Source: Eledone cirrhosa (taxonomy: Eukaryota). From it: 64,000 nt of DNA. The notes beneath the pieces are model-generated. The model saw only the letters and a program-made list of their open reading frames with translations, was not told where the DNA came from and did no database searches. Location: the NCBI GenBank assembly GCA_964016885.1, contig OZ024745.1, forward strand, positions 131,316,001-131,380,000, in the 5' to 3' direction. This document shows positions 17,366-31,805 of the stretch, one piece after another. The translations under genes were made by a program, and so were the position numbers. Each line of letters begins with the position of its first letter. The stretch's first letter is position 1.

Positions 17366-17588
17366 CTATACACTATCCCCCAAAATATGTTTGCTAAGAA
17401 CAGCCGACATCAATTCAATAACTCGGGTCAAACAGAACAGTCTACACACACAACACCTCCCCTATACAACAAGTGCCTCATTAAATAAAATCCAACACAC
17501 AAAATACATATACTCTTGAACCCTTTAACATTTACATTACTCTATATTTACTATTGTATTTTCATGGTAAAGGTTTTATCTCCTATAA

Positions 17589-17617
17589 TGCATATATATA
17601 TATATATATATATGCAC

Positions 17618-17656
<39 letters not shown>

Positions 17657-17672
17657 CATATATATATATATG

Positions 17673-17706
<34 letters not shown>

Positions 17707-17978
17707 TATATATATATATATATATATGCATATATATATATATATATGCATATATATATATATATATGCATATATCTATATATATATATATATATATATA
17801 TATGCATATATATATATATATATGCATGTATATATATATATATATATATATGCATATATCTATATATATATATATATATGCATATATCTATATATATATA
17901 TATATATGCATATATATATATATATATATATATGCATATATATATATATATATATGCATATATATATATATATATATA

Positions 17979-18046
<68 letters not shown>

Positions 18047-18070
18047 TATATATATATATATATATATATA

Positions 18071-18122
<52 letters not shown>

Positions 18123-18194
18123 TATATATATATATATATATATGCATATATATATATATATATATATGCATATATATATATATATATATATGCA
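17589..18194. repeat. (TA)n-TGCA self-complementary satellite, block 1
   Basis: Begins abruptly inside a truncated piggyBac MITE end (17520-17588). Confidence 0.95.
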
Positions 18195-19379
18195 TTGGTC
18201 GTGCTCGGTGTGTAGGAAAGGCGTAGGTAGAAACTCCATTTTATGTCCTAAATGCAAAGTATGGGTGCATAAAAGATGTAGTGGGATCACAGGTAGGCTA
18301 ACTAAGAACATAGATTTTACATGTGGCCGGTGCTCTGGTGCAATAAGTAGCAGCAAGTGCCCACAAAATACTAGCTCTTTCAATTGCGCAGAGGGTTCTA
18401 TAGAAATAGTGGACAGCTTCCGTTACCTGGGCGATAAAATCAGCAGTGGGGGAGGGTGCTCTGAAAGTACTGTAGCTAGAGTCAGAACTGGTTGGAAAAA
18501 GTTCAGAGAGCTTATACCACTATTAGCTGCTAAAGGGTTCTCACTAAAAATGAAAGGCAGGTTGTACGATGCCTGCATACGAACAGCAATGCTGCATGGC
18601 AGTGAGACCTGGGCATTGTGTGCAGAGGATATACGCAGACTAGAGAGGAACGAAGCTTGCATGCTCCGCTGGATGTGTAACAGTAATATACGTGAACGGC
18701 AAAGCATAAACGAACTAAGGAATAAATTAGAGATAAGAGGGATCAGATGTTGTCTACTCGAGAGAAGGCTACGTTGGTATGGACACGTGATGCGCATGAA
18801 AGTCGATAGCTGTATAACAAAGTGCAGGGCAATAAAGATAGACGGTAGTCACGGAATAGGCAGACCTAGAAAAACCTGGGACGAGCTGATAAACTCCGAC
18901 ATCACACACTTACACCTCTCCAAGACAATGTCACTGGACCGAGACCTTTGGCGGTACTCAGTAACAGAGAAGACCCGCCTTACCTAAATATATAGTAAAA
19001 CCTACTCCAGCCAGTAGGCATCTCTAACAAATACACCCCGTCCCACCACCCCCACCCGATCCACACCACCCCGTTCTATGTAAAGTTATGTTGGTGCCGC
19101 GCCATCGAGGCCGAAACAAATGAGATCGTGTAGGTGTCACGACAAAAAAACACACAGTCCACGCTGTAATGTGGCCGTGTAGGCAACACGGTAAAAACCT
19201 CCCAGACCCACACTGTAAATGTGGTTGGTGTTAGGAAGGGCATCCAACTGTAGAAAACCTGCCAGACAGTCCTATGCGAGCAAGACAATCACTCTTGCCT
19301 CAAGTGGGACTACCCCCGTCCAAACCCATGCAAGCGTGGAACACGGACGTTAAACGTTGATGATGATGATGATGATGAT
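18195..19379 (+). mobile_element. 5'-truncated RTE LINE (subfamily B): PHD-like finger, RT C-terminus, 3'UTR and (GAT)7 tail
   Basis: Stop-free [61 protein letters not shown] to the stop at 18987. Confidence 0.93.
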
Positions 19380-19405
19380 ATATATATATATGCATATATA
19401 TATAT

Positions 19406-19650
19406 ATCATCATCATCATCAACGTTTAACGTCCGTGTTCCACGCTTGCATGGGTTTGGACGGGGGTAGTCCCACTTGAGGCAAGAGTGATTGTCTTGCT
19501 CGCATAGGACTGTCTGGCAGGTTTTCTACAGTTGGATGCCCTTCCTAACACCAACCACATTTACAGTGTGGGTCTGGGAGGTTTTTACCGTGTTGCCTAC
19601 ACGGCCACATTACAGCGTGGACTGTGTGTTTTTTTGTCGTGACACCTACA
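19406..19650 (-). mobile_element. Inverted copy of the last ~245 nt of the RTE-B 3'UTR with (GAT)5 tail
   Basis: Reverse complement of 19129-19373 with no visible substitutions. Confidence 0.95.
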
Positions 19651-19738
19651 TATATATATATATGCATATATATATATATATATATATATATGCATATATA
19701 TATATATATATATATATGCATATATATATATATATATA

Positions 19739-19774
<36 letters not shown>

Positions 19775-19841
19775 TATATATATATATATGCATATATATA
19801 TATATATATATGCATATATATATATATATATATATATATGC

Positions 19842-19876
<35 letters not shown>

Positions 19877-19878
19877 TA

Positions 19879-19918
<40 letters not shown>

Positions 19919-20020
19919 TATATATATATATGCATATATATATATATATATATATATGCATATATATATATATATATATATGCATATATATATATATGCA
20001 TATATATATATATATATATA

Positions 20021-20054
<34 letters not shown>

Positions 20055-20214
20055 TATATATATATATATATATGCATATATATATATATATATATGCATA
20101 TATATATATATATATATGCATATATATATATATATATATGCATATATATATATATATGCATATATATATATATATATATGCATATATATATATATATATG
20201 CATATATATATATA

Positions 20215-20252
<38 letters not shown>

Positions 20253-20270
20253 TATATATATATATATATA

Positions 20271-20304
<34 letters not shown>

Positions 20305-20406
20305 TATATATATATATATATATATATATGCATATATATATATATATATATATATGCATATATATATATATATATATATATGCATATATATATATATATA
20401 TATATA

Positions 20407-20442
<36 letters not shown>

Positions 20443-21480
20443 TATATATATATATATATGCATATATATATATATATATATGCATATATATATATATATA
20501 TATATGCAAATATATATATATATATATATATGCAAATATATATATATATATGCATATATATATATATATATGCATATATATATATATATATATATGCATA
20601 TATATATATATATATATGCATATATATATATATGCATATATATATATATGCATATATATATATATATGCATATATATATATATATATGCATATATATATA
20701 TATGCATATATATATATATATATGCATATATATATATATATATGCATATATATATATATATATATATGCATATATATATATATATATATATGCATATATA
20801 TATATATATATATATGCATATATATATATATATATATATGCATATATATATATATATATATATGCATATATATATATATATATATATGCATATATATATA
20901 TATATATATATGCATATATATATATATATATATGCATATATATATATATATATATATGCATATATATATATATATATATGCATATATATATATATATATA
21001 TATATGCATATATATATATGCATATATATGCATATATATATATGCATATATATATATATATATATATGCATATATATATATATGCATATATATATATATA
21101 TATATATGCATATATATATATATATATATATATGCATATATATATATATATATGCATATATATATATATATATATATATGCATATATATATATATATATA
21201 TATGCAAATATATATATATATATATATATGCATATATATATATATATATATATGCATATATATATATATGCAAATATATATATATATATATATGCATATA
21301 TATATATATATATATATATATGCATATATATATATATATATATATGCAAATATATATATATATATATGCATATATATATATATATATATATATGCATATA
21401 TATATATATATATATATATATGCATATATATATATATATATATATGCATATATATATATATATATATATATATGCATATA
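19651..21480. repeat. (TA)n-TGCA satellite, block 2
   Basis: Direct inspection. Confidence 0.95.
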
Positions 21481-21657
21481 TAGAAAGGATGAATATAAAA
21501 TGAAAGTGCTTTTGTTAAAAAAGGAATTTATTAGGTATTGACATATGTTTCTGTAACAGACGGAATACCTATGTATCGCTGCTTGCGTATTCATATAATG
21601 TTAGCAAGTATTCGATAGCAAATGTATAATCAGTTGTCACTTCTTCAGAGATTTGAT
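21481..21657 (-). mobile_element. Penelope-type terminal module with hammerhead-like core (copy 2), isolated in satellite
   Basis: Reverse complement of 9896-10068 with a few substitutions. Confidence 0.6.
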
Positions 21658-21681
21658 TATATGCATATATATATATATATA

Positions 21682-21719
<38 letters not shown>

Positions 21720-21827
21720 TATATATATATATATATATATGCATATATATATATATATATATGCATATATATATATATATATATGCATATATATATATAT
21801 ATATCTATATATATATGCATATATATA

Positions 21828-21905
<78 letters not shown>

Positions 21906-22128
21906 TATATATATATATATGCATATATATATATATATATGCATATATATATATATATATGCATATATATATATATATATATGCATATATATATATATGC
22001 ATATATATATATATATATGCATATATATATATATATATGCATATATATATATATATGCATATATATATATGCATATATATATATGCATATATATATATAT
22101 ATATATGCATATATATATATATATATAT
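21658..22128. repeat. (TA)n-TGCA satellite, block 3
   Basis: Direct inspection. Confidence 0.95.
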
Positions 22129-22752
22129 ATCATCATCATCATCATTTTACGTCTGCTTTTCCCTGCTTGCAAGGGTGGGACGGGTCTTATTCAGCACAGC
22201 ATCTCTCCACTCGTCACGGTCCCTCGTCATCTCCACCGTGAGCTTCAATGATCTGAGGTCTGTTCTCCCCACCTCCGCCCATGTTTTTCGTGGTCTACCT
22301 CTACCACGTCTTCCTTCAACTGGCATTTCCTGGCACTTCTTCACCCATCGGTCATCCTCCATGCGCATCACATGTCCATACCACCTCAGTCTCCTCTCCC
22401 GTACACTACATTCTATCCCTCTCAGACACAGTTTCTCTCTCAACACATTTATGCTGGGTCGTTCACGCACATTTACACTGCACATCCAACGGAGCATGCT
22501 TGCCTCATTTCTCTCCAGCTGTCGCATATCTTCTGCGGTTGCTGCCCATGTCTCACTACCATGCAGCATCGCGCTCCTCACACAGGCATCATACAACCGG
22601 CCTTTCGTACGCAGGGAGAAACCCTTCTTCGTCAACAGAGGAAGCAGCTCCGTAAACTTCTTCCAACCCATCCTTATTCTAGATACTATGGCCTCGGAAC
22701 ACCCTCCTCCCATGCTAATCTGATCTCCTAGATACCGGAAGCTATCCACCAC

Positions 22753-22753
<1 letters not shown>
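22129..22753 (-). mobile_element. 5'-truncated RTE LINE (subfamily A) 3' end with (GAT)n tail
   Basis: Stop-free [17 protein letters not shown]; only ~8 amino-acid differences from 28941-29547. Confidence 0.95.
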
Positions 22754-26694
<3,941 letters not shown>

Positions 26695-29547
26695 ATTTTC
26701 CTGGCTGAGAAATGGATCAATAAGACAATAGAGGTAGTTCGAGTTAGTAATCGAATAATTAAGCTTAGATTAGTTGTAGGAAGGAGACTACTGACAATCA
26801 TCTCGGTCTATGCTCCCCAAGCAGGCCTAGGCAAAGATGAGAAAGACTGCTTTTATGAGCAACTTTTGCAAACAACCACAATGACAGAGGACGGAGACAT
26901 CGTTATGCTAGCAGGAGACTTCAATGGTCATGTTGGACAGCTCCAGGATGGTTACACTGGGGTACATGGTGGGCACGGTTACGGTTCAAGAAATGAAGAA
27001 GGAGTGAGACTTCTTGAATTTTGTGATGCAAGTACATTGACTATTTGCAACACAAACTTCCAGAAACCTGCCAATCACCTAATAACCTACAAATCTGGTG
27101 AGCACATAAGCCAGATTGACTTCCTGCTAGTTAGGCAGTGGGACAGGCAGATAGTGTCTAATACCAAGGCATACCCTGGGGAAGAATGTACCCCACAGCA
27201 TAGGTTAGTTGTTAGTGATATCTCAGTAAGCAAGAGATGGAATGAGACATATAGGAAGGTGTGGAGAAGAAAGGTCTGGAAGCTAAAAGACATTTCACTA
27301 AAATTCAAATTTAGGAAAGCCCTTCAAGATGTATATGACGAAAAAGAAGACGATTTAGAGACGTATGACATAGATAATAACTGGAAGTTCTTACGTGACA
27401 ACTTGCTGAAGGCTACTGATGAAACCTGTGGCTGGAGCAGAGCTCCAACCAGACAGAGAGTGACCTGGTGGTGGAACAGCAGTGTAGATAAGGCTATTAG
27501 AGACAAAAGACTAGCATGGAAGGCTTGGAATAAGGGTGGGAGTAGGGAAGAATATACAGCCACTAAGAGAGAAGCTAGACGTCAGGTGTACTTAGCACGC
27601 AGGGAGGCAGAGAGTAGGAGGTTTGCCAATGTTCTGCGACGGGAAGATCAGAGGCGTGCGGTGTTCCACATTGCAAGGCAGTGTGTCAATGCAAATCAGG
27701 ATGTTGTTGGTGATAAATGTGTCCGGGATGATGCCGGTGTACTTAGTGTCACGAATGACCAGAAAAAGGAGGCCTGGAAATGTCATTATGAGAGACTGAT
27801 GAATGTGGAGAACGAATGGGAGAGAGAGAAATTACCCTTGGTAGATCCGACAGAGGGACCAGCTATTGAGATTGACGAATATAGAGTCCAAGAGGCGATT
27901 AGGGAAATGAAAAATGGTAAGGCGGCCGGACCATCGGGAATAGTTGCTGAGATGCTGAAGGCATCAGGGGACGTAGGCACTAAACTGGTTGCACGCATAA
28001 TCAATCAGGCTATATATGGTGGTGTCATACCCAAAGACTGGTGCAGCAGTATTCTCATAAATTGCTACAAAGGTAAAGGGGATGCTTTGGAGAGGAGCAA
28101 TTATAGGGGTATAAAACTGATAGATCAGGTTATGAAAGTGGCAGAAAGGATTTTAGCACAACTAATTAGAGAAAGGGTCAAACTAGATGAGATGCAGTTT
28201 GGTTTTGTGCCTGGGAAGAGTACAACAGATGCCCTCTTCTTGGTGAGACAAATGCAAGAGAGGTTCTTAGAGAAGAATAAGCCACTATACTTAGCCTTTG
28301 TTGACCTAGAGAAGGCCTTTGATAGGGTACCCCGATCTGTCATCTGGTGGTCCCTAAGGAAGCTGGGTGTTGAGGAATGGCTTGTAAGGACAGTGCAAAC
28401 TTTGTACAGAGGTACTCTCAGTAAAGTCAGGGTAGGAATGGAGTTTAGTGAGGAATTCCAGATACAAGTAGGAGTACATCAGGGTTCGGTCCTCAGCCCG
28501 CTCTTGTTCATTATAGTCCTCCAAGCCATAACAGAGGAGTTTAAGACTGGCTGTCCATGGGAACTTCTCTATGCTGATGATCTGGCTCTTATGGCAGAAT
28601 CAGTAGAGGAGCTAGAGAATAAATTCCGGCTATGGAAACAGCAGTTGGAAGCAAGAGGACTGAGAGTAAATCTAGCTAAGACAAAAGTGTTGATGAGTAG
28701 AAAAGAGGACAAAACCCTGATTCCGTCAGGGAAATGGCCATGTTCGATATGCAGAAAAGGAACTGGCATAAATTCTATAAAATGCACACAATGTAGGTCC
28801 TGGGTACACAAGAGATGTAGCGGGATAGCAGGCAAACTAACAGGTAGGGAGAAATATGTATGCAGTAGATGTACAGGGAAATTAGACAGTAGAAGTCGCA
28901 CTGATAGACACATTTTTCAAATGCGAGAGGGCGCTATAGAAGTGGTGGATAGCTTCCGGTACCTAGGAGATCAGATTAGCATGGCAGGAGGGTGTTCCGA
29001 GGCCATAGTATCTAGAATAAGGACGGGTTGGAAGAAGTTTAGGGAGCTGCTTCCTCTGTTGACGAAGAAGGGTTTCTCCCTGCGTACGAAAGGCCGGTTG
29101 TATGATGCCTGTGTGAGGAGCGCGATGCTGCATGGTAGTGAGACATGGGCAGCTACTGCAGAAGATATGCGACGGCTGGAGAGAAATGAGGCAAGCATGC
29201 TCCGTTGGATGTGCAGTGTAAATGTGCGTGAACGACCCAGCATAAATGTGTTGAGAGAGAAACTGTGTCTGAGAGGGATAGAATGTAGTGTGCGGGAGAG
29301 GAGACTGAGGTGGTATGGACATGTGATGCGCATGGAGGATGACCGATGGGTGAAGAAGTGCCAGGAAATGCCATTTGAAGGAAGACGTGGTAGAGGTAGA
29401 CCACGAAAAACATGGGCGGAGGTGGTGAGAACAGACCTCAGATCATTGAAGCTCACGGTGGAGATGATGAGGGACCGTGACGAGTGGAGAGATGCTGTGC
29501 TGAATAAGACCCGTCCCACCCTTGCAAGCAGAGAAAAGCGGACGTAA
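26695..29547 (+). CDS. RTE-clade LINE ORF (~950 aa, N-terminally truncated): APE endonuclease, reverse transcriptase and PHD-type zinc finger
   Basis: EN motifs [19 protein letters not shown]; RT motifs [40 protein letters not shown]; RTE C-terminal LHGSETW/RLRWYGH/GRPRKTW; no stops or frameshifts. Confidence 0.95.
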
Positions 29548-29562
29548 AATGATGATGATGAT
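26695..29562 (+). mobile_element. Young RTE LINE (subfamily A), 5'-truncated, (GAT)4 tail, inserted in (TA)n-TGCA
   Basis: Intact ORF ending 3 nt before the (GAT)n tail; satellite on both sides. Confidence 0.95.
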
Positions 29563-30072: not shown

Positions 30073-31805
30073 GTCATCCAGCGGAGCATGCAAGCTCCGT
30101 TCCTCTCCAGTCTGCGTATATCCTCTGCACATAATGCCCAAGTCTCACTGCCATGTAACATTGCTGTTCGTATGCTGTTCGTATGCAGCCTTTCATTTTT
30201 AGAGAGAACCCTTTAGCGGTCAATAGTGGTATAAGCTCTCTGAACTTTTTCCATCCTGTTCTGACTCTAGCTACTGTACTTTCGGAGCACCCTCCACCAC
30301 TGCTGATTTTGTCACCCAGGTAACGGAAGGTGTCCACTATTTCTATAGAACCATCTGTGCAATGGACTGAGCTAGTATTCTGTGGGCACTTGCTGCTACT
30401 TATTGCACCTGAGAACCGGCCACATATAAAATCTATATTCTTAGTTAGCTTACCTGTGATCCCACTACATCTTTTATGCACCCATACTTTGCATTTTGGA
30501 CATAAAAGGAGTTTCTGCCTACTCCTTTCCTACACACTGAGCATGGCCATTTCCCAGATGGGACCGGTGCCCTATTTTCCTTCCTACAAACTAGAACTTT
30601 AGTCTTAGACAGGTTAATTTTAAGGCCTTTTGATTCTAGGCCATGCTTCCATGTTTGGAATTTCTTCTCTAGTTCAGCCATTGATTCAGCTATGAGTATT
30701 AGATCATCTACGTATAGGAGTTCCCATGGGCAGCCGGTCTTGAACTCCTCTGTTATAGCCTGAAGGGCAATAATCAATAGTAGTGGGCTAAGAACACCAA
30801 CTTTTTCGCTAAACTCTTCACTATATTCGTTGTTAATTCTAACCTTGCTGACTGTTTCTTTATACATGGCTTGTATAGCTCTCACAAGCCATTCATCAAC
30901 ACCTAGTTTTCTAAGAGCCCACCAGATAATGGAGCGAGGGACTCTGTCAAAGGCTTTCTCCAAGTCAACAAAAGCTAATATAGGGGTTTACTTTTAGCTA
31001 GGTACTTCTCCTGTAGTTGTCATACAATGAAAAGAGCGTCTGTGGTACTTTTATCTGACACAAACCCGAACTGCATTTCATCTAGATCAATTTTCTCTCT
31101 GATTAGTTGCGCTATTACTTTTTCTGTGACCTTCATGACAGGTCGATTAATTTAAGGCCTCTATAGTTACCCCTTCGGAACGACCCCATTCTGTATGACT
31201 CGGTTTACTATCCGGGTGACCATAGTGTGTCCCACTGTTCCAGATGCTTTCAGCATTTCAGCAACTGTTTCCGAAGGCCCAGCCGCCTTACCCATCTTCA
31301 TATCTTTGATTGCCTTACTTATTATACTACCTTCAACTTGCACTGCTGGTCCCTCTATTGGATCGATGATGGGGAGACTGTCTTTCTCCCATTTATTCTC
31401 CTCATTTAGTAGCCTTTCGTAGTGACACTTCCAAGCTACCTTCTTATCAACGTCAGTGATGGCAAGTACACCATCATCATTAAGGACACACTTCTCCCCG
31501 ACAATATCACGGTTTTCCTTGACACACTGCCTAGCAATCCTGAACACCTCACGTTTTTGGTCCTCGCGTTGTAGAACATGCTTGAACTTTCTTTCCTCTG
31601 CTTCCCTTCTTGCGAAGTACACTTGTCTCCTAGCTTCCCTCCTGGCCACTTGATAGTCTTCTCTACTTCCCCCATCCTGCCATACTTTCTAAGCCTGCTT
31701 TTTGGCCTTAATTGACTCCTCCACCTTACTGTTCCACCACCACATTACCCTCCTCCTGCCTATAGGCCTGCTCCAGCCACAGACTTCATCTGCCGCCTTC
31801 AGCAT
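30073..31805 (-). mobile_element. Degenerate RTE LINE (subfamily B) internal fragment, RT region
   Basis: Frameshifted ORFs [43 protein letters not shown]. Confidence 0.93.

What the first reader, a model, noticed from the sequence alone, without database searches (positions are those of the whole stretch)
19129..19650. 522-bp near-perfect palindrome: two identical LINE 3' ends tail-to-tail around an exactly centred TGCA
Seen: arms 19129-19379 and 19406-19650 are exact reverse complements apart from tail length ((GAT)7 versus 5). The 26-nt spacer is itself perfectly symmetric (11 nt of TA, TG|CA, 11 nt of TA; axis 19392/19393). Established: L1-type twin priming gives internal inversions, not duplicated tail-to-tail 3' ends, and long perfect palindromes are usually unstable. 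Inference: either symmetric double target-primed reverse transcription on both strands of a palindromic target (different tail lengths suggest two priming events), or hairpin fold-back synthesis initiated at the TGCA dyad. A transcript would form a ~250-bp perfect hairpin (siRNA or ADAR substrate).
Basis: partly seen in the sequence, partly recalled or inferred. Interest (0 to 1): 0.75.

Follow-up and report, generated by a model that had tools for sequence, protein, structure and literature searches.

The report
Tail-to-tail LINE pair in TA repeat
The 522-base palindrome is real and is one of hundreds of tail-to-tail jumping-gene ends in this genome's TA repeats; it likely arose from two separate landings of a very young, uniform family, although a local mirror-copying error, which likely made a few percent of such pairs, is almost as likely.

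Summary
The palindrome is real: 245 of 245 bases pair, with tails (GAT)7 and (GAT)5. The left arm is the end of a 1.18-kb truncated RTE-like LINE. The centred TGCA is one unit junction of the (AT)nGC array on both flanks. The family has at least 9,112 copies and is very uniform: 11 of 25 unrelated copies carry the same 226 bases. Tail-to-tail pairs are common (49 young-type pairs at gaps of 25-117; 236 in a related family). Most have diverged arms and asymmetric spacers, as separate insertions would. A minority (about 12 of 228 examined) are true mirror copies: short arms repeating private tail or spacer mutations around a palindromic TA spacer. One has an exactly centred GC, as here. This locus has no private variant inside the arm, so it cannot be assigned: two independent insertions about 0.5, fold-back copy about 0.4. 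Symmetric double priming at one break is unlikely, because it would point the tails outward. Reads and expression were not testable. The scan earlier noted TA-targeting LINEs and fold-back scars on other DNA of this genome. Ordinary in kind.

The parts
17584..18195 (.). (AT)nGC microsatellite array, left flank
18178..18195 (+). candidate target-site duplication of element 1, 5' copy (18 nt, includes one GC)
   Evidence: identical to 19378-19395; lies in a repeat, so its length is not unique
18196..19379 (+). element 1: 5'-truncated RTE-like LINE of the youngest subfamily (end of ORF, about 370-nt 3' UTR, (GAT)7 tail)
   Evidence: 98.7% to an intact endonuclease-RT-PHD copy; 0.11-0.18% from the nearest copies
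18196..18987 (+). open C-terminal part of the LINE ORF with a PHD finger (about 18202-18333)
   Evidence: translation; PF00628 E 2.3e-06
19129..19379 (+). left arm of the palindrome (3' UTR end plus tail of element 1)
19380..19405 (.). spacer (AT)6 GC (AT)6, one junction of the surrounding array; axis 19392/19393
19378..19395 (+). candidate target-site duplication of element 1, 3' copy
19406..19650 (-). element 2, the right arm: 245-nt copy of the LINE 3' end with a (GAT)5 tail, ending directly in the array
19393..19407 (-). candidate target-site duplication of element 2, 3' copy (15 nt; a 30-nt reading also fits)
   Evidence: identical on the minus strand to 19649-19663; a fold-back case (L100) shows a similar direct repeat, so this does not discriminate
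19649..19663 (-). candidate target-site duplication of element 2, 5' copy, with 2-nt microhomology to the element
19651..26700 (.). (AT)nGC array, right flank, interrupted at 21478-21655 and by an older RTE-like piece
22129..22755 (-). older, about 69% identical RTE-like LINE end inserted in the same array on the minus strand

Best explanation
Two copies of a very young, TA-seeking RTE-like LINE likely landed one after the other on opposite strands of the same (AT)nGC microsatellite, about 12 bases either side of one GC. Shown: the family sits mostly in TA repeats, is nearly invariant over its last 226 bases, and forms many tail-to-tail pairs at all short spacings. Inferred: each landing was an ordinary target-primed reverse transcription, primed through AT pairing with the (GAU)n RNA tail, truncated early, with its own tail length and its own 15-18-nt target duplication. 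Because alternating AT reads the same on both strands, either orientation is equally possible. The arms match because the family is young. The spacer is symmetric by a roughly 1-in-14 chance. The palindrome has no shown function.
For: Copy number: 4,467 + 4,645 exact matches of a 31-mer. Of 30 single copies, 23 continue with AT directly after the tail (read). Uniformity: 11 of 25 single copies and 17 of 59 other pair arms that cover the 226-nt stretch are identical to it; 55 of 300 random pairs of singles are identical. Tail-to-tail young-type pairs: 9, 21 and 19 at gaps of 25-55, 56-86 and 87-117, and still 10 at 300-330, against 0.67 per bin if uniform. This is broad clustering without a sharp peak. 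In 30 pairs with at least 150 shared bases, arms are no more alike than shuffled partners (mean 3.3% vs 3.4%, p 0.43; 1 identical pair vs 0.7 expected). Two other pairs have perfect arms over 200 nt and then diverge (L060, L052). Tail counts are equal in only 28 of 178 pairs. Five of seven pure single-GC spacers are asymmetric (read). Chance symmetry from this array's run lengths is 0.071. Both pieces have perfect candidate duplications; RTE duplications are mostly 7-15 bp (PMC6007223 passages). The 12 mirror copies that I picked reach only 12-96 nt past the anchor; this arm reaches 226.
Against: Palindromic interrupted spacers are strongly enriched (5 of 122 vs 0.2 shuffled). Of the 4 other than this locus, 3 are mirror copies (L100, L213, L237). 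L100 has the same build as this locus, and its arms share a variant seen in 2 of 100 listed copies. This explanation needs two coincidences (symmetry and identity). Element 1's candidate duplication (16-18 nt) is above the usual RTE range. The odds calculation spans 0.07-0.88 for fold-back, depending on an arm-length prior that 12 hand-picked cases do not fix.
Confidence: 0.5

Rival explanations
1. Fold-back (template-switch) copy. A nascent or nicked top strand ending just past the GC folded back on the self-complementary (AT)nGC(AT)n, copied the tail and 230 bases of element 1 in reverse, then rejoined the TA array through a 2-base microhomology. The tail count changed by slippage.
For: A real class exists here. 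15 of 228 pairs share rare features between arms against 2.0 in permutations (max 9 of 5000; 14 of 226 without the two loci of another repeat family). Six pairs have exactly palindromic middles, five of them with mirrored private or uncommon tail or spacer changes (L172, L185, L213, L237, L284). L048 shares a variant found in only those 2 of 103 arms. L100 is GC-centred. Tail counts differ in about half of the 12 mirror copies. Inverted fragments of median 160 bp are reported for yeast small inverted triplications (PMC13334657 passages).
Against: None of the 12 mirror copies exceeds 96 nt of element; a log-normal fit gives about 0.001-0.002 for this length. Long near-perfect pairs persist in this genome (L007, 3 mismatches in 1,283), so purging does not fully explain the lack of long mirror copies. 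The yeast break-site fold-backs of PMC11724301 are mostly 5-34 bp (abstract). There is no private variant in this arm to show copying.
Confidence: 0.4
2. Concerted double priming: one LINE protein dimer, or two, cut symmetrically round the GC dyad and reverse-transcribed two RNAs at once.
For: Equal offsets from the dyad, different tail lengths, and both pieces compatible with the youngest subfamily. In several short-spaced pairs one element's candidate duplication spans the whole spacer (L007, L010, L047).
Against: One staggered break primed at both ends gives tails outward (inference; PMC11702581 passages). Pair spacings show no peak. Partner arms are not enriched for similarity overall. The two 5' junctions are not mirror images. 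Whole-spacer duplications also occur in pairs with diverged arms (L047 90.7%, L003 90.7%).
Confidence: 0.05
3. Assembly artefact from fold-back long reads.
For: Perfect arms inside a long low-complexity array. No laid contig spans the centre, because the tool skipped the repeats.
Against: Tail counts differ by two units, and the sequence returns to the array after 245 nt with a junction like other truncated copies. Many similar pairs have diverged arms and so cannot be read chimeras.
Confidence: 0.05

Closest known systems
RTE-clade LINEs with microsatellite tails (PMC2887409, abstract and outline; PMC6007223, passages; RTE-2_OV of Octopus vulgaris, PMC9115989, passages)
   Same: Single ORF with endonuclease and RT, 5'-truncated copies, tail of short repeats whose last bases match the start of the target, short target duplications.
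   Different: This family has a PHD finger after the RT and a 3' UTR of about 370 nt, not an extremely short one; the target is alternating TA rather than a T-stretch motif. I did not compare it with RTE-2_OV by sequence.
Closely spaced inverted Alu pairs and CLIQUEs (PMC3215922, passages)
   Same: New insertions cluster at the tail and target duplication of earlier ones, giving closely spaced pairs including tail-to-tail ones.
   Different: In human the close pairs are mostly direct (inverted:direct 0.073 at spacers up to 24 bp). Here the target is self-complementary, so inverted neighbours are expected. I did not count direct pairs.
Short-range template switch, four-point model, inverted-repeat type 3-2-1-4 (PMC5453318, passages; PMC10710096, passages)
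   Same: One switch-and-return makes a perfect inverted repeat in one step; this fits the mirror-copy minority and possibly this locus.
   Different: Those studies worked in non-repeat DNA or filtered out simple repeats, and their example events are tens of bases. Here the turn is in a TA tract beside a LINE tail, and this arm is 245 nt.
Small inverted triplications and break-site fold-back insertions in yeast (PMC13334657, passages; PMC11724301, abstract and outline)
   Same: A 3' end folds back at a palindromic junction and returns by microhomology; inverted fragments of 20 bp to kilobases.
   Different: Here there is no third, direct copy of the element end; the return is into the TA array.
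L1 twin priming and two-RNA inverted insertions (PMC11702581, passages)
   Same: Two reverse transcripts in opposite orientation at one site.
   Different: Those join at an internal junction between the two transcripts; here target DNA lies between two tails.

Membership tests
RTE-clade LINE | single ORF with APE endonuclease and reverse transcriptase | tested here: met
   1,133-aa stop-to-stop ORF in L071 with PF03372 and PF00078; element 1 is 98.7% identical to its 3' part
RTE-clade LINE | 3' end in short tandem repeats | tested here: met
   (GAT)n, 3-10 units, in 30 of 30 single copies
RTE-clade LINE | very short 3' UTR | tested here: not met
   about 370 nt from the stop (18987) to the tail (19359); RTE-2_OV is also reported with UTRs of about 600 nt
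RTE-clade LINE | RT phylogeny places it in the RTE clade | not tested
   no reference RT set was fetched; the Atlas hit has the same three domains but no clade name. I therefore write 'RTE-like'; the label rests on recall of RTE motifs and on earlier notes
RTE-clade LINE | target duplications mostly 7-15 bp | tested here: inconclusive
   candidates of 5-30 nt, mostly within TA repeats and ambiguous
Template-switch (fold-back) inverted repeat | palindromic turn point | tested here: met
   (AT)6 GC (AT)6
Template-switch (fold-back) inverted repeat | inverted copy carries the local source's private variants | tested here: inconclusive
   element 1's three rare variants all lie outside the arm; met for L048, L100, L172, L185, L213, L237, L284
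Template-switch (fold-back) inverted repeat | copy exact through the whole mirrored stretch | tested here: not met
   tails of 7 vs 5 units; but several mirror copies also differ in tail count
Template-switch (fold-back) inverted repeat | ancestral allele without the inverted copy | not testable with these tools
   no relatives are held; laid contigs skip the repeats
Twin priming or two-RNA insertion at one break | tails face the flanks, internal junction between transcripts, one target duplication round both | tested here: not met
   tails face each other across target DNA, and each piece has its own 5' junction
Small inverted triplication | direct copy, inverted copy, direct copy | tested here: not met
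   only two copies of the element end at this locus

The most novel reading that the evidence does not exclude
TA tracts beside LINE tails are a recurrent fold-back hotspot driven by the LINE's own enzymes: the endonuclease nicks the TA tract next to an existing copy, the freed 3' end snaps back at the dyad, and the reverse transcriptase copies the neighbour, with tail slippage. That would give a steady source of perfect hairpins from LINE ends (candidate siRNA, microRNA or editing substrates), this locus being a long and recent example.
Probability: 0.12. Interest if true: 0.6.

Novelty: new member of a known kind. Interest (0 to 1): 0.27.

Why it matters
As a single locus it matters little: both leading explanations are known processes. 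The useful result is at population level. In a TA-rich genome with a TA-seeking LINE, tail-to-tail inverted repeats form by the hundreds, and a few percent are one-step mirror copies turning in the TA tract, a setting that the template-switch surveys I read had filtered out or left aside. If transcribed, such pairs would give long double-stranded RNA; that was not testable here. My searches for tail-to-tail LINE palindromes in microsatellites or cephalopods listed no paper on this exact case; the library lacks most subscription journals.

Tried and rejected
A DNA search of the own genome with the arm found nothing because common words are skipped; patterns were used instead. The run search listed no RNA holder, which is no evidence on expression. 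Laying contigs of four runs (at most two samples, one study) on 19100-19672 gave no cover over the repeat centre or the right junction because repeats are skipped; this is no evidence either way, and the second laying call was not used. An Rfam scan of a full-length copy found no family. Target-duplication lengths could not be fixed inside TA runs. The idea that one element's duplication spanning the whole spacer marks a coupled event was dropped because it also occurs in pairs with diverged arms. Longer pairs that shared rare k-mers (L130, L212, L234, L295) were not counted as mirror copies: their spacers are not palindromic, and the partner was not clearly the closest copy except for L234. 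Rows dropped: L009 (near-duplicate of L008), strand duplicates, and L297/L311 (another repeat family caught by the pattern). Listings were cut: 100 of 156 rows, 100 of 136, 50 of 236 loci; the 30 single copies are the first on contig C1 and were selected by an exact 31-mer inside the arm, which favours identity. The shuffled-spacer control breaks locus-specific interruptions and so understates chance symmetry in a GC array. No supplements were read; the Additional file of PMC3215922 discusses closely spaced inverted pairs and may bear on the comparison.

Full report
Observation. The palindrome is as described. Window 19129-19373 equals the reverse complement of 19406-19650 at 245 of 245 bases. 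The tails are (GAT)7 and (GAT)5, and the spacer 19380-19405 is (AT)6 GC (AT)6 with its axis at 19392/19393. The left arm is the end of a longer piece, 18196-19379. Both flanks are the same (AT)nGC array, in which every GC is a dyad, so the centred TGCA is one ordinary unit junction. The arm has no variant against the family's commonest bases.

The element. The left piece holds the open C-terminal part of a LINE ORF with a PHD finger. A longer copy fetched from the genome has one 1,133-aa frame with endonuclease, reverse transcriptase and PHD domains, and the window piece is 98.7% identical to it. Single ORF, repeat tail and truncation match RTE-clade LINEs (PMC2887409 abstract; PMC6007223 passages). 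I did not build an RT tree, so I call it RTE-like. The host is probably an octopod; that rests on recall of such repeats and on earlier notes, not on a call. An exact 31-mer occurs 9,112 times. Of 30 single copies, 23 continue with AT right after the tail (read). The family end is nearly invariant: 11 of 25 single copies and 17 of 59 other pair arms covering the 226-nt stretch equal this arm exactly. The singles were chosen by a motif inside the arm, so the second figure is the fairer one.

Tail-to-tail pairs are common. Young-type pairs number 9, 21 and 19 at gaps of 25-55, 56-86 and 87-117 bases, and 10 at 300-330, against 0.67 per bin for a uniform scatter. Patterns with an older-type end gave 156 and 136 strand rows, and a related family gave 236 loci. 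In 30 young-type pairs with at least 150 shared bases, partner arms were no more alike than shuffled partners (3.3% vs 3.4%, p 0.43). Of 178 distinct pairs, 3 have perfect arms of 200 bases or more: this one, and two that diverge further out. The bulk of the class is therefore separate insertions into one TA tract. That parallels insertion clustering at earlier copies in human (PMC3215922 passages), except that a self-complementary target allows either orientation (inference).

A minority are mirror copies, which counts against my best explanation. Among 228 pairs examined, 15 share rare features between arms against 2.0 in permutations; two of the 228 belong to another repeat family, leaving 14 of 226. 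Six have exactly palindromic middles, five of them mirroring private or uncommon tail or spacer changes, with a short arm that mostly ends in TA. L048 shares a base found in only those 2 of 103 arms. L100 has this locus's build, (AT)4 GC (AT)4 with tails of 7 and 8, and its 43-nt arms share a variant seen in 2 of 100 listed copies. Palindromic interrupted spacers are 5 of 122 against 0.2 in shuffles, although that control understates chance symmetry within a GC array. These fit template-switch inverted repeats (PMC5453318 passages; PMC10710096 passages). The 12 cases I picked by eye as mirror copies, some weaker than others (L012, L197, L225), reach 12-96 bases past the anchor.

This locus. 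Element 1's three rare variants lie outside the arm, so the direct test is blind. For two insertions: the arm is more than twice as long as any mirror copy seen; tail counts differ, as in 150 of 178 pairs; each piece has a perfect candidate duplication, 18 and 15 nt; chance symmetry is 0.071; five of seven pure single-GC spacers are asymmetric. For fold-back: three of the four other palindromic interrupted spacers are mirror copies; mirror copies often differ in tail count too; a duplication-like repeat also flanks L100; and fold-back fragments of median 160 bp are reported in yeast (PMC13334657 passages). A rough odds calculation gives 0.07-0.88 for fold-back, depending on the arm-length prior. 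I settle at 0.5 for two insertions and 0.4 for fold-back. Shown: anatomy, family uniformity, both classes. Inferred: the priming mechanism, the order of events and the assignment of this locus.

Priming both 3' ends of one staggered cut puts the two tails at the flanks and joins the 5' ends inside (inference; in line with PMC11702581 passages). A tail-to-tail pair with target DNA between needs two complete 5' joins, and the two joins here are not mirror images. I give it 0.05. An assembly artefact gets 0.05: contigs of public runs could not test it, but unequal tails and a return to the array argue against it.

Function. The strand would fold into a hairpin of about 245 pairs. No RNA holder was listed, so expression, small RNAs and editing are untested. 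Nothing suggests selection.

Papers seen. Passages only: PMC13282606, PMC9115989, PMC6007223, PMC3215922, PMC11702581, PMC10710096, PMC7999016, PMC13334657, PMC5453318. Abstract and outline: PMC2887409, PMC11724301. No supplements. Searches for this exact case listed no paper on it. Earlier notes of the scan gave the lead to PMC6007223 and mention longer fold-backs elsewhere in this genome; I did not check those loci, but they made me give long fold-backs a little more weight.

Verdict. A real, ordinary by-product of a TA-seeking young LINE in a TA-rich genome, with a near-even chance of being a long template-switch mirror copy. New member of a known kind; interest 0.27.

Noticed in passing
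L100 (G000:C26:22895957-22895992): Second exactly GC-centred tail-to-tail palindrome; the 43-nt short arm shares a rare variant with an older, internally deleted element.
   Followed up: yes
L172, L185, L191, L213, L237, L284, L221, L197, L048, L012, L225: Short mirror copies of LINE tails turning in TA tracts; several repeat private tail or spacer mutations.
   Followed up: partly
L007 (G000:C3:32777406-32777489): Tail-to-tail pair with 1,283-nt arms and only 3 mismatches round an asymmetric 18-nt spacer; both arms share a variant seen in 3 of 48 copies. A long near-perfect palindrome that has persisted.
   Followed up: partly
L297 and L311 (G000:C2:54487507, C2:222503340): A different repeat with a 575-nt unit and an A/T-run core; in L297 two units face each other with 1 mismatch in 575. 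Family not identified.
   Followed up: no
L014, L015, L030, L046, L049, L054, L068: Copies whose match to the LINE end stops at about 204 nt and is preceded by a further copy of part of the 3' UTR; possibly a shorter derivative or SINE with an internal repeat.
   Followed up: no
L071:2946-6347 and L073:570-3758: Open single-ORF copies (1,133 and 1,062 aa stop to stop) with a PHD finger inserted after the RT domain; a paper search for PHD in RTE ORF2 listed only two general papers.
   Followed up: partly
L024, L034: 2 of 30 single young copies sit tail-to-tail, 4 bases from the tail of an older RTE-like family.
   Followed up: no
L042-L045: Four neighbouring young copies all face one way in an 18-bp satellite at a similar phase.
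   Followed up: no
window 22129-22755, 26701-29562, 30075-31804: Further RTE-like pieces (67-92% identity to the young family) in or beside the same TA arrays, in both orientations.
   Followed up: no
L008 and L009 (G000:C3:227718757, 227724431): The same tail-to-tail pair repeated 5.7 kb apart: a local duplication or an assembly duplicate.
   Followed up: no
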